Shown here: piece by piece, positions 45,852 to 60,770 of the stretch
Layout: every line of letters starts with the position of its first letter
Numbering within the stretch: position 1 is the first letter of the stretch
Origin: Escherichia phage teqskov
Sequence record: NC_054934.1
Reading direction: 5' to 3' (one strand)
Length of the DNA: 64,000 nucleotides
Notes under the pieces: model-generated
Told to the model about the DNA's origin: nothing
Databases searched by the model: none
The model's input: the letters and a program-made list of their open reading frames with translations, nothing else
Position numbers and translations under genes: made by a program

Positions 45852-47054
45852 ATGAAAGTATGTATTTTTATGGCTCGAGGTCTTGAAGGTTGTGGTGTAA
45901 CTAAATTTTCTCTTGAGCAACGTGATTGGTTTATTAAGAATGGTCATGAAGTAACTTTGGTTTATGCTAAAGATAAATCATTTACTCGTAATTGCGCGCA
46001 TGATTATAAATCATTTTCAATTCCGGTTTTATTGGCAAAAGAATATGATAAAACACTTAAGCTGGTAAATGATTGTGATATTCTAATTATCAATTCAGTT
46101 CCTGCTACTTCGGTTGAAGAAGACACTATTAATAACTATAAAAAAATTATTGATAACATTAAACCTTCTGTTCGTGTTGTAGTTTATCAACATGACCATT
46201 CTTCTCTTTCTTTGCGCCGAAATTTGGGATTAGAAGAAACTGTTCGTCGAGCTGATGTTATTTTTAGCCATTCTGATAATGGTGATTTTAATAAAGTTCT
46301 GATGAAAGAATGGTATCCTGAAACAGTTTCTCTGTTTGATGATATTGAAGAAGCACCGACAGTATATAACTTTCAGCCTCCTATGGATATTGCGAAGGTT
46401 CGGTCAACCTACTGGAAAGATGTTTCTGAAATTAACATGAATATCAACCGTTGGATTGGTCGTACGACTACATGGAAAGGTTTTTATCAGATGTTTGATT
46501 TTCATGAAAAACATCTTAAACCTGCAGGACTAAGTACTATTATGGAAGGTCTGGAACGTTCTCCAGCGTTCATTCCTATTAAAGAAAAAGGAATTCCATA
46601 CGAGTATTATCGTCTTCATCAAGTAGACCAAATTAAAATTGCTCCTAATTTGCCAACGCAAATTCTTGACCGTTATGTAAATAGCGAAATGCTTGAACGT
46701 ATGAGTAAATCCGGTTTTGGTTATCAGCTGAGTAAGTTGGATAAAAAATATCTACAGCGCTCTTTAGAATATACTCATCTCGAGCTTGGTGCATGTGGAA
46801 CAATTCCGGTATTTTGGAAATCTACTGGCGAAAATTTAAAATTCCGTGTTGATAATACTCCTTTGACCTCGCATGATAGCGGTATCATTTGGTTTGATGA
46901 AAATGACATGGAATCAACATTTGAACGTATTAAAGAACTGTCATCTGATCGAACTCTTTATGACCGCGAACGCGAAAAAGCTTATGAATTTTTGTATCAG
47001 CATCAAGATTCAAGCTTCTGCTTTAAAGAACAGTTTGACATTATTACAAAATAA
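45852..47054 (+). CDS. agt: DNA alpha-glucosyltransferase
   Basis: 400 aa; close match to remembered T4 alpha-gt across its length. Confidence 0.9.
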   Translation: MKVCIFMARGLEGCGVTKFSLEQRDWFIKNGHEVTLVYAKDKSFTRNCAHDYKSFSIPVLLAKEYDKTLKLVNDCDILIINSVPATSVEEDTINNYKKIIDNIKPSVRVVVYQHDHSSLSLRRNLGLEETVRRADVIFSHSDNGDFNKVLMKEWYPETVSLFDDIEEAPTVYNFQPPMDIAKVRSTYWKDVSEINMNINRWIGRTTTWKGFYQMFDFHEKHLKPAGLSTIMEGLERSPAFIPIKEKGIPYEYYRLHQVDQIKIAPNLPTQILDRYVNSEMLERMSKSGFGYQLSKLDKKYLQRSLEYTHLELGACGTIPVFWKSTGENLKFRVDNTPLTSHDSGIIWFDENDMESTFERIKELSSDRTLYDREREKAYEFLYQHQDSSFCFKEQFDIITK

Positions 47055-56855: not shown

Positions 56856-56891
56856 CAACTATCAACTACTGATACAGATTTGGAGAATAAA

Positions 56892-57128
56892 ATGAAAATT
56901 GTTATGGGATGCTTAGCAGTTTGTTTAGTTGCATTAGCAGCAGTTCCATTTGTTAGTGTTGAAAATGATACTCAACCTGTGATTGAATCTAGCACCGTTA
57001 TTCACACTAATGGTAAAATATCAGTTAAAATTGATGATAATCTTCATGTGAATACAAATGGATCTTTAGGTGTGCAAATGGGTAATACCTGCATAAGCAC
57101 TACTGGAGTAATTACTACTTGCATTTGA
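56892..57128 (+). CDS. Small membrane or secreted protein
   Basis: 78 aa from ATG 56892; hydrophobic N-terminus; GGAGA SD in the conserved leader. Confidence 0.45.
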   Translation: MKIVMGCLAVCLVALAAVPFVSVENDTQPVIESSTVIHTNGKISVKIDDNLHVNTNGSLGVQMGNTCISTTGVITTCI

Positions 57129-57526: not shown

Positions 57527-57778
57527 ATGGAAACTTTAGTAGCAGGTTCAATTTTTATGGTTTTAGTTTCAGGCGTGTTGGCTATTATTATATACATGCT
57601 TCCATGGTTTATCGCCTTGATGCGTGGGTCAAAATCGACAGTAGGAATCTTTTTCACATCTTTACTGTTTAACTGGTCAATTATTGGTTGGTTTATTACA
57701 TTTATTTGGTCAATTGCGGGTGAAACTAAAAAATCTGTACAGCAAAATCAAGTAATTATCATCAGAGAGAAGGAATGA
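57527..57778 (+). CDS. imm: Superinfection immunity membrane protein Imm
   Basis: 83 aa, two TM helices; size and position as T4 imm. Confidence 0.75.
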   Translation: METLVAGSIFMVLVSGVLAIIIYMLPWFIALMRGSKSTVGIFFTSLLFNWSIIGWFITFIWSIAGETKKSVQQNQVIIIREKE

Positions 57779-57924
57779 AAAGCAAAATTTTAGCAGTATT
57801 GCTTTTAATCTTGATGATTATAATAAGTATATACTATAGCGTAACAGTTCCTCTTATGATTCCGCCACTTATTATAGGTTGGAGTTTATTACTGTTACAA
57901 GTTAAATATGAATGCATCAATTGA
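57775..57924 (+). CDS. Small hydrophobic membrane peptide (49 aa)
   Basis: ATG overlaps imm stop (ATGA); below the ORF-track cutoff. Confidence 0.35.
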   Translation: MKSKILAVLLLILMIIISIYYSVTVPLMIPPLIIGWSLLLLQVKYECIN

Positions 57925-57931
57925 GGTTTAA

Positions 57932-58672
57932 ATGATTAACGATTATATGACAGTTGAAGAAATCCGTCTTGATTTGGGTCTTGCATTAAAGGAAAAAGAT
58001 TTCGTAATTGATAAAACCGGTGTTAAAACTATTGAAATTATTGGTGCATCATTTGTAGCAGATGAACCTTTTATTTTTGGCGCTCTTAATGATGAATACA
58101 TTCAGCGTGAACTTGAATGGTATAAATCTAAGAGCTTGTTTGTTAAAGATATTCCAGGTGAAACACCAAAGATTTGGCAGCAGGTAGCATCTTCTAAAGG
58201 CGAAATTAATTCGAATTATGGTTGGGCCATCTGGTCAGAAGATAACTATGCCCAATATGATATGTGTTTAGCTGAACTTGGTCAAAATCCTGATTCTCGA
58301 CGTGGTATCATGATTTATACTCGTCCATCTATGCAGTTTGACTACAACAAAGACGGCATGTCAGATTTCATGTGTACGAATACAGTACAGTACCTGATTC
58401 GTGATAAGAAAGTTAATGCAGTAGTAAGCATGCGTTCAAATGACGTGGTCTTCGGATTCCGTAATGATTATGCATGGCAAAAATACGTATTAGATAAATT
58501 AGTATCTGATTTGAATGCAGGCGATTCAACTCGTCAGTATAAAGCAGGTTCTATTATATGGAATGTTGGAAGTCTTCATGTATATTCTCGTCATTTTTAC
58601 TTGGTTGATCATTGGTGGAATACTGGCGAAACTCATATTGTGAAAAAAGATTATAACGGTGAGTGGAAATGA
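57932..58672 (+). CDS. 42: dCMP hydroxymethylase gp42
   Basis: 246 aa; thymidylate-synthase-like fold motifs; matches remembered T4 gp42. Confidence 0.9.
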   Translation: MINDYMTVEEIRLDLGLALKEKDFVIDKTGVKTIEIIGASFVADEPFIFGALNDEYIQRELEWYKSKSLFVKDIPGETPKIWQQVASSKGEINSNYGWAIWSEDNYAQYDMCLAELGQNPDSRRGIMIYTRPSMQFDYNKDGMSDFMCTNTVQYLIRDKKVNAVVSMRSNDVVFGFRNDYAWQKYVLDKLVSDLNAGDSTRQYKAGSIIWNVGSLHVYSRHFYLVDHWWNTGETHIVKKDYNGEWK

Positions 58673-59511
58673 TTCAATTCGTAATTCCGAGCTATCAACG
58701 TGTAGGGGCAGTTTCTGCCCTTGATATGTTTCCGACTGATTATGAACCTCATATCGTAGTACGTGAACATGAAGAAAAAGCTTATTATGACGCCTATGGG
58801 TCTAGAGCTAAAATTATAACTATTCCTGATGATGTAAACGGAATTGCCGGTACTCGTAAAGCAATTACTGATATGTATGCAGGTCAACGAATCTGGATGA
58901 TTGACGATGATACTACTATTCGTATGAGTTCAATGCGAAAAAGAGATGATCGTCGTTGCGTAGATAAAGTCAATCAATTGACTCGTGAACAGTTCTATGA
59001 ATTGATTCAATATGTTGAGGATGCCATGGATTGTGGGTATTATCATGGCCATGCTCGTCTACCTATTTTTAAAATTACTTCATCTTGGGGTAATTATCGT
59101 GAAAATTCATATGGATTCACGAATACATGGTATGACCTTGGAAAACTTACTACAGAACAAATTGGGTATGGAAAAATTGATTTATGCGAAGATATGTATG
59201 CATTTCTCAATTTAATTAATCAAGGTTATCCGCATTTGGCCTTGTTCAAATATCTAGTTGTATCTGGAAAAGCACAAGCTCCTGGCGGGTGCAGTTCAAT
59301 TCGCAGTAATTCTAAACATAATAGAGCGCTTGAGCAAATCAATATAGAGTTTCCAGAGCAAGCTCGTTGGAAAACTTCTAATATTGAAAAACGAAAATCG
59401 TTGGGTGAAGAAGACGAGCCATTAAAGGTTCTTCGCATGTGTGTTTCGCGCAAAGAAAAATCAGAAGCATTTCATAAGTTTAATGCTATTCATCCAATAG
59501 CAGTTGATTAA
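58669..59511 (+). CDS. Putative GT-A glycosyltransferase (DxD motif) at the beta-gt locus; not T4 beta-gt-like
   Basis: 280 aa from ATG 58669 (ATGA overlap with 42); IWMIDDDTTI DxD motif; T4 has the 351 aa beta-gt here. Confidence 0.5.
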   Translation: MIQFVIPSYQRVGAVSALDMFPTDYEPHIVVREHEEKAYYDAYGSRAKIITIPDDVNGIAGTRKAITDMYAGQRIWMIDDDTTIRMSSMRKRDDRRCVDKVNQLTREQFYELIQYVEDAMDCGYYHGHARLPIFKITSSWGNYRENSYGFTNTWYDLGKLTTEQIGYGKIDLCEDMYAFLNLINQGYPHLALFKYLVVSGKAQAPGGCSSIRSNSKHNRALEQINIEFPEQARWKTSNIEKRKSLGEEDEPLKVLRMCVSRKEKSEAFHKFNAIHPIAVD

Positions 59512-59566
59512 TGCCTAAATTTATTGTGTTATAATTACTCTATCTTTAACCAGTGAGGAAAATATA

Positions 59567-59623
59567 ATGATGCCTATGGAAAAAATGAATGTCTATTGCA
59601 GATTTAAAATCCCGTTTGATTAA
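59567..59623 (+). CDS. Candidate 18-codon upstream ORF overlapping the uvsX start
   Basis: GAGGAA SD at 59555-59560, 6 nt before ATG 59567; the uvsX ATG at 59589 lies inside this ORF. Confidence 0.25.
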   Translation: MMPMEKMNVYCRFKIPFD

Positions 59624-60770
59624 AGCTTCCACTTCTAAAATGACTGCTGAACTGACTACATCTAAATTCTTTAATGAAAAGGATGTAATCCGTACAAAAA
59701 TCCCAATGCTTAATATTGCTATTTCTGGTGCGATTGATGGCGGCATGCAGTCTGGTTTAACTATTTTCGCAGGGCCTTCTAAACACTTTAAATCAAATAT
59801 GTCTTTGACTATGGTTGCGGCATATTTGAACAAATATCCTGACGCGGTTTGTCTATTCTATGATAGCGAATTTGGTATTACTCCAGCTTATTTGCGATCC
59901 ATGGGAGTTGACCCGGAACGTGTAATTCATACGCCAATCCAGTCAGTTGAACAGCTGAAAATTGATATGGTGAACCAGCTTGAAGCTATTGAGCGTGGTG
60001 AAAAGGTTATTGTATTCATCGATTCAATCGGTAATATGGCTTCCAAGAAAGAAACTGAAGATGCTTTGAATGAAAAATCTGTAGCAGATATGACTCGTGC
60101 TAAATCACTGAAGTCATTATTCCGTATTGTTACTCCTTATTTTAGCATTAAAAATATTCCGTGCGTTGCGGTTAACCATACAATTGAAACAATTGAAATG
60201 TTTAGTAAAACCGTGATGACAGGTGGTACAGGCGTAATGTATTCGGCTGATACCGTATTCATTATCGGTAAACGCCAGATTAAAGATGGTTCTGATCTTC
60301 AGGGGTATCAATTTGTTCTAAATGTAGAAAAATCTCGTACCGTTAAAGAAAAAAGTAAATTCTTTATTGATGTTAAATTTGATGGTGGTATCGATCCTTA
60401 TTCTGGATTGTTAGATATGGCTCTAGAATTAGGATTCGTGGTAAAACCCAAAAATGGTTGGTATGCTCGTGAATTTCTTGATGAAGAAACCGGCGAGATG
60501 ATTCGCGAAGAAAAATCTTGGCGTGCAAAAGATACCAACTGCACTACATTCTGGGGTCCTTTATTTAAGCATCAACCATTCCGAGATGCTATTAAACGTG
60601 CTTATCAGTTAGGTGCTATTGATAGTAATGAAATTGTTGAAGCTGAAGTTGATGAATTGATTAACTCAAAGGTTGAAAAATTTAAATCTCCAGAAAGTAA
60701 AAGTAAATCAGCTGCTGATTTAGAAACTGACCTCGAGCAGTTAAGTGATATGGAAGAATTTAATGAGTAA
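59589..60770 (+). CDS. uvsX: RecA-like recombinase UvsX
   Basis: 393 aa; Walker A GPSKHFKS; close match to remembered T4 UvsX. Confidence 0.95.
   Translation: MSIADLKSRLIKASTSKMTAELTTSKFFNEKDVIRTKIPMLNIAISGAIDGGMQSGLTIFAGPSKHFKSNMSLTMVAAYLNKYPDAVCLFYDSEFGITPAYLRSMGVDPERVIHTPIQSVEQLKIDMVNQLEAIERGEKVIVFIDSIGNMASKKETEDALNEKSVADMTRAKSLKSLFRIVTPYFSIKNIPCVAVNHTIETIEMFSKTVMTGGTGVMYSADTVFIIGKRQIKDGSDLQGYQFVLNVEKSRTVKEKSKFFIDVKFDGGIDPYSGLLDMALELGFVVKPKNGWYAREFLDEETGEMIREEKSWRAKDTNCTTFWGPLFKHQPFRDAIKRAYQLGAIDSNEIVEAEVDELINSKVEKFKSPESKSKSAADLETDLEQLSDMEEFNE

What the first reader, a model, noticed from the sequence alone, without database searches (positions are those of the whole stretch)
58669..59511. 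A 280 aa DxD glycosyltransferase occupies the beta-glucosyltransferase locus
Between gene 42 and uvsX, where T4 encodes the 351 aa beta-gt, this phage has a 280 aa protein unlike T4 beta-gt but with a GT-A-type DxD motif (IWMIDDDTTI). agt (45852) is present and T4-like. This fits a T2/T6-type DNA modification in which a second transferase adds glucose onto alpha-glucosyl-HMC; the sugar pattern governs sensitivity to glucose-dependent restriction systems.
Basis: partly seen in the sequence, partly recalled or inferred. Interest (0 to 1): 0.5.

Follow-up and report, generated by a model that had tools for sequence, protein, structure and literature searches.

The report
Known T2/T6-type second DNA glucosyltransferase
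This gene is the long-known T2/T6-type enzyme that adds a second glucose to already glucosylated phage DNA; it is the usual occupant of this locus in T4-like coliphages, so the finding is correct but ordinary.

The parts
58669..59511 (+). ba-gt (ggt) coding sequence, 280 aa: beta-glucosyl-HMC-alpha-glucosyltransferase of the Pfam TAGT family
   Evidence: ORF. DNA 100% identical to Bas44 ba-gt. Protein 277/280 identical to T2. PHROG 842 at E 2e-88. PF20691 at 38.9 bits against a cut-off of 27.5.
58658..58672 (+). Translation start region: GGTGAG Shine-Dalgarno-like element, 5-nt spacer, and an ATGA overlap of the ba-gt start with the gene 42 stop, which suggests translational coupling
   Evidence: Read directly from the sequence. 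Coupling is inferred.
58699..58701 (+). Codon for R11 (CGT), invariant in the family. The T2 allele has CAT (His) here.
58903..58911 (+). Codons for D79-D80-D81, the DxD motif expected to bind the metal and the UDP-sugar diphosphate
   Evidence: Invariant in the 9-sequence alignment. In the 73-sequence alignment D80 is invariant and D79 and D81 are at least 90% conserved. The role is inferred from GT-A enzymology.
59188..59193 (+). Codons for E174-D175, an 'ED' motif and candidate catalytic base of an inverting GT2-like enzyme
   Evidence: D175 is invariant across 73 family members and 'ED' appears in the consensus. The role is inferred by analogy to GT2 enzymes.
45852..47054 (+). alpha-gt, the DNA alpha-glucosyltransferase that makes the alpha-glucosyl-hmC acceptor
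   Evidence: PF11440 at 786 bits. 91% identical to T4 alpha-gt. 99.8% nt identity to the TB37 a-gt.
57932..58672 (+). Gene 42, the dCMP hydroxymethylase that supplies hmC
   Evidence: PF00303 at 58 bits. Annotated as dCMP hydroxymethylase in Bas44, T2 and T4.

Best explanation
The ORF encodes the T2/T6-type beta-alpha-glucosyltransferase (ba-gt, ggt, Pfam TAGT). The pathway runs in three steps. Gene 42 makes hm-dCMP, which is incorporated during replication. Alpha-gt puts an alpha-linked glucose on hmC in the DNA. This enzyme then transfers a second glucose from UDP-glucose in beta-1,6 linkage onto that first glucose, giving gentiobiosyl-hmC. It is a small GT-A-fold enzyme that presumably inverts the anomeric configuration. 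The DDD at 79-81 is expected to hold the divalent metal and the UDP diphosphate, D175 in the ED motif is the likely catalytic base, and R11 is a likely nucleotide-sugar contact. The identity of the gene, its family, its fold class, its motif conservation and the presence of the partner genes are shown here. The chemistry and its biological effect are taken from the literature on T2, T6 and near-identical phages. The residue roles are inferred. So is my prediction that this phage's DNA is mostly gentiobiosyl-hmC (T6-like) rather than mostly monoglucosylated (T2-like). Converting alpha-glucosyl-hmC to gentiobiosyl-hmC hides the base from defences specific for the monoglucosylated form.
Confidence: 0.95

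Rival explanations
1. The gene is present but works at a low level, as in T2. The DNA would then be mostly alpha-monoglucosylated hmC with only a few percent gentiobiosyl-hmC.
For: The nearest classical relative by sequence is T2, with 5 nt and 3 aa differences. T2 is reported to have about 70% alpha-glucosyl and about 5% gentiobiosyl hmC. Bas35-45, which includes the phage with an identical gene, are all restricted by the alpha-glucosyl-hmC glycosylase Brig1.
Against: The window lacks both T2-specific substitutions (R11H and P251S). R11 is invariant in 73 family members, and the H11 allele occurs only in the 8 T2/SV76 records. Apart from I226 at a variable position, the protein equals those of EH2, Solly and TB37, which have about two-thirds gentiobiosyl-hmC. 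Brig1 also restricts T6 in vivo, so Brig1 sensitivity does not discriminate between the two patterns.
Confidence: 0.15
2. It is a diverged homologue or functional replacement of T4 beta-gt that puts a single beta-glucose directly on unmodified hmC.
For: It occupies the same genomic position as T4 b-gt. Some database records label it 'beta-glucosyltransferase' or 'b-gt'.
Against: It has no sequence similarity to T4 beta-gt (best BLASTP E 0.56) and no PF09198 hit, whereas T4 b-gt hits that family at 322 bits. Its predicted fold is GT-A, while the T4 enzymes are GT-B. No beta-glucosyl-hmC was detected in phages with this gene, and T6 lacking ba-gt retains alpha-glucosylation only.
Confidence: 0.02
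3. It transfers a different sugar, or acts on a different acceptor, than the T2/T6 enzyme, as proposed for distant solitary TAGT homologues.
For: TAGT homologues occur with alpha-GT, with beta-GT, or alone in other phages, which suggests varied specificities across the family.
Against: At 99% identity to the T2 enzyme, and one residue from enzymes of phages with measured gentiobiosyl-hmC, a change of specificity is very unlikely.
Confidence: 0.02

Closest known systems
Phage T2 beta-glucosyl-HMC-alpha-glucosyltransferase (ba-gt, ggt; cloned by Winkler and Rueger, Nucleic Acids Res 1993, 21:1500, cited through the reference list of PMC11946311)
   Same: Both are 280 aa, 277/280 identical, at the same locus between 42 and uvsX, with the same ATGA overlap with gene 42.
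   Different: The window has R11, I226 and P251 where T2 has H11, R226 and S251. R11 is invariant in the family.
ba-gt of Escherichia phage AdolfPortmann (Bas44, MZ501046.1, BASEL collection)
   Same: Identical over all 843 nt, with identical neighbours.
   Different: The surrounding 24 kb of the window is at most about 97.5% identical to any record, so the window comes from a different, mosaic Tequatrovirus genome.
TAGT/ba-gt of phages EH2, Solly and TB37 (Durham collection), whose DNA was analysed by HPLC/MS (PMC13390438)
   Same: 279/280 aa identical with the same synteny, and the window's a-gt is 99.8% nt identical to that of TB37.
   Different: They have R226 where the window has I226. 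The DNA of the window phage has not been measured.
Phage T4 beta-glucosyltransferase (PF09198, GT-B fold)
   Same: It occupies the same genomic slot downstream of gene 42 and also uses UDP-glucose to modify hmC DNA.
   Different: It is unrelated in sequence and fold and puts a single beta-glucose directly on hmC. It is found in only 29 phage records.
Cellular GT2-like GT-A glycosyltransferases
   Same: They share the predicted Rossmann-like GT-A core, the DxD motif and an ED motif. The literature places TAGTs as sister to GT2.
   Different: Identity is only 10-17%. This protein is a small soluble enzyme whose acceptor is a sugar already attached to DNA.

Membership tests
T2/T6 beta-alpha-glucosyltransferase (ba-gt/ggt, PHROG 842) | Full-length, high sequence identity to the cloned T2/T6 enzymes | tested here: met
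   277/280 identical to T2. 275/280 to the T6 MH550421 reading frame. PHROG 842 at E 2e-88 covering residues 1-275.
T2/T6 beta-alpha-glucosyltransferase (ba-gt/ggt, PHROG 842) | Location immediately downstream of gene 42 and upstream of uvsX | tested here: met
T2/T6 beta-alpha-glucosyltransferase (ba-gt/ggt, PHROG 842) | Co-occurrence with alpha-gt, which makes the acceptor, and with gene 42, which makes hmC | tested here: met
   alpha-gt at 45852-47054 and gene 42 at 57932-58672.
T2/T6 beta-alpha-glucosyltransferase (ba-gt/ggt, PHROG 842) | Transfers glucose from UDP-glucose in beta-1,6 linkage to alpha-glucosyl-hmC in DNA, so that gentiobiosyl-hmC appears in virion DNA | not testable with these tools
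   Known for T2 and T6, and for EH2, Solly and TB37 from the literature. Not measured for this phage.
Pfam PF20691 TAGT (TET-associated glycosyltransferase) | Score above the curated gathering threshold over the full model | tested here: met
   38.9 bits against a cut-off of 27.5, covering model positions 2-205 of 205.
Pfam PF20691 TAGT (TET-associated glycosyltransferase) | Family-invariant residues present (R11, D79-D81, D175, G206-G207, R212) | tested here: met
   Alignments A1 and A2.
GT-A fold glycosyltransferase superfamily | Single Rossmann-like alpha/beta/alpha nucleotide-sugar-binding domain | tested here: met
GT-A fold glycosyltransferase superfamily | DxD motif at the end of a central beta-strand | tested here: met
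   DDD 79-81 directly follows predicted strand E74-77 and is conserved. Metal binding itself was not tested.
T4 beta-glucosyltransferase (PF09198) | Detectable sequence similarity to T4 beta-gt or a hit to PF09198 | tested here: not met
   Best BLASTP E 0.56 over 35 residues. No PF09198 hit even at E up to 1, whereas T4 b-gt scores 322 bits.

The most novel reading that the evidence does not exclude
The allele at this locus may predict the DNA sugar pattern from sequence alone. The window's enzyme carries the family-invariant R11 and is one variable-position residue from enzymes of phages with about two-thirds gentiobiosyl-hmC. It should therefore give a T6-like, mostly diglucosylated genome. 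The classic low level in T2 (about 5%) would then be explained by the T2-private R11H substitution making a weakened enzyme. I found no published statement of this explanation in the papers read here.
Probability: 0.35. Interest if true: 0.3.

Novelty: already known. Interest (0 to 1): 0.08.

Why it matters
The type of sugar on hmC decides which host defences can see T-even DNA. Brig1 and the deglucosylase BapA act on monoglucosylated hmC but not on gentiobiosyl-hmC, while GmrSD-type enzymes cut all forms. Knowing that this phage has alpha-gt plus ba-gt, and not T4's alpha-gt plus beta-gt, is useful for predicting its host range and defence sensitivity. It is routine annotation rather than a discovery, because the gene was cloned in 1993 and is annotated in hundreds of genomes.

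Tried and rejected
1. Direct BLASTP against T4 beta-gt found no similarity, so homology was rejected.
2. A sequence search of the PDB returned only chance hits at E above 1, so no member of this family turned up there.
3. NCBIfam gave no hit.
4. The promoter and terminator scan of 57700-59700 found nothing above shuffled expectation: 13 promoter-like sites against 9.8 expected, and 1 terminator-like site against 0.8. I make no claim about a dedicated promoter.
5. The source phage could not be identified from a 24 kb stretch. The best match is 97.4-97.5% (RB18, SholemSchwarzbard), so the window is not Bas44 even though the ba-gt genes are identical.
6. The original 1993 cloning paper (PMC309348) is not held in the library.
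7. The contingency-locus preprint does not mention ba-gt.

Full report
**Observation.** The + strand carries an ORF ending at 59511. The mechanical ORF list starts it at GTG 58663, but the ATG at 58669 gives the 280 aa product annotated in every related genome. That ATG overlaps the TGA of the upstream gene in an ATGA, and a GGTGAG Shine-Dalgarno-like element sits 5 nt upstream. This layout is typical of translationally coupled T-even early genes; the coupling itself is inferred. The upstream gene (57932-58672) is the thymidylate-synthase-family dCMP hydroxymethylase, gene 42. The downstream gene (59589-60770) is uvsX. The motif IWMIDDDTTI is present, with DDD at residues 79-81 (nt 58903-58911). 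A 400 aa alpha-glucosyltransferase lies at 45852-47054. It matches Pfam PF11440 at 786 bits and is 91% identical to T4 alpha-gt.

**Identity.** The 843 nt are 100% identical to the gene annotated 'hmC beta-alpha-glucosyltransferase ba-gt' in Escherichia phage AdolfPortmann (Bas44). They are 99.4% identical to the gene in all phage T2 records. The protein is 277/280 identical to T2 beta-glucosyl-HMC-alpha-glucosyltransferase. It matches PHROG 842, which bears the same name, at E 2e-88. It also matches Pfam PF20691 (TET-associated glycosyltransferase, TAGT) at 38.9 bits against a gathering score of 27.5. Comparison with T4 beta-gt gives nothing better than E 0.56 over 35 residues, and there is no hit to the T4 beta-gt Pfam family, which T4's own protein hits at 322 bits.

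**Distribution.** In the phage collection, 473 records carry this gene at 90% nucleotide identity or more. Only 29 records carry T4-type b-gt. A 2026 survey likewise reports that only 6 of 753 glucosyltransferase-encoding phage genomes combine alpha-GT with beta-GT, and that most Tequatrovirus pair one of them with a TAGT (PMC13216743). The arrangement in this window is thus the common one, and T4 is the outlier. T4 also has the homing endonuclease segA between b-gt and uvsX. The window has only a 77 nt spacer there.

**Mechanism.** Three things are shown here: the identity of the gene, its family and fold class with conserved motifs, and the presence of intact partner genes (42 and alpha-gt). 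The chemistry comes from the literature. The T2/T6 enzyme adds a second glucose in beta-1,6 linkage to alpha-glucosyl-hmC, producing gentiobiosyl-hmC. T6 lacking ba-gt carries only alpha-glucosyl-hmC and is more sensitive to the alpha-glucosyl-hmC DNA glycosylase Brig1 (PMC11078745). The deglucosylase BapA cannot act on gentiobiosyl-hmC. GmrSD-type enzymes attack all forms. Three points are inferred by analogy with GT2-like GT-A enzymes. Because UDP-alpha-glucose yields a beta linkage, the enzyme must invert the anomeric configuration. The DDD is expected to bind the metal and the UDP diphosphate. D175 of the conserved ED motif is the likely catalytic base.

**Expected extent of the second glucosylation.** T2 is reported to have about 5% gentiobiosyl-hmC and T6 about 72%, although their enzymes are homologous. 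The window protein differs from T2 at R11H, I226R and P251S, written window to T2. R11 is one of only four invariant positions in the family. A 40 nt probe centred on the H11 allele finds only 8 records, seven of them T2 and one SV76, while the R11 version is widespread. The enzymes of Durham phages EH2, Solly and TB37 differ from the window protein only at residue 226 (R instead of I), which is a variable column. HPLC/MS of those phages found about one-third hmC, about two-thirds gentiobiosyl-hmC, and only background monoglucosyl-hmC (PMC13390438). I therefore predict a T6-like pattern for this phage. I also suggest, as an untested hypothesis, that R11H underlies T2's low level. Brig1 sensitivity of Bas35-45 does not contradict this, because T6 is also restricted in vivo.

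**Novelty and verdict.** The gene was cloned in 1993 (Winkler and Rueger, cited in PMC11946311). It is annotated in hundreds of genomes and has been studied genetically and structurally in 2024-2026 papers. Interest is low.

Noticed in passing
L004:3138-3980 (-) (T6 MH550421) and L008:301-1140 (T6 AP018814 / NC_054907): Both independent phage T6 genome records carry a lesion in ba-gt. MH550421 has TAG at codon 10 (CAG to TAG) and is annotated as a 261 aa product starting at M20. AP018814 has an in-frame 3 nt deletion that turns the conserved DDD into DD. This is odd for the phage reputed to have 72% gentiobiosyl-hmC. It may reflect drift in laboratory stocks, or slippage in the GAT GAT repeat.
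   Followed up: partly
window 58699-58701; L002:3031-3033: The T2 ba-gt allele has His at residue 11, where all 73 aligned family members, including this window, have Arg. The H11 allele is found only in T2/SV76 records, 8 of 473. This is a possible cause of T2's low gentiobiosyl-hmC content.
   Followed up: partly
window 59512-59588: Only a 77 nt spacer separates ba-gt from uvsX. T4 has the GIY-YIG homing endonuclease gene segA in this interval, and the window, T2, T6 and Bas44 lack it.
   Followed up: partly
window 58703-58723: A 9-pair hairpin (TAGGGGCAG TTT CTGCCCTTG) lies within codons 12-19 of ba-gt and was flagged as terminator-like. One such site is no more than chance expectation (0.8).
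   Followed up: no
window 40000-64000: Over 24 kb the window is at most about 97.5% identical to any phage record (RB18, SholemSchwarzbard). Yet ba-gt is 100% identical to Bas44 and a-gt is 99.8% identical to TB37. This is the mosaic pattern typical of T-even phages, and the source genome is apparently not in the collection.
   Followed up: partly
window 56880-57128 and 57775-57924: Two small ORFs with hydrophobic N-terminal or membrane-like sequences (82 aa and 49 aa) lie between gene 43 and imm.1, and between imm and gene 42. Both are annotated as hypothetical proteins in Bas44. T4 has nothing annotated at either position, and T2 has nothing annotated at the 49 aa one.
   Followed up: no
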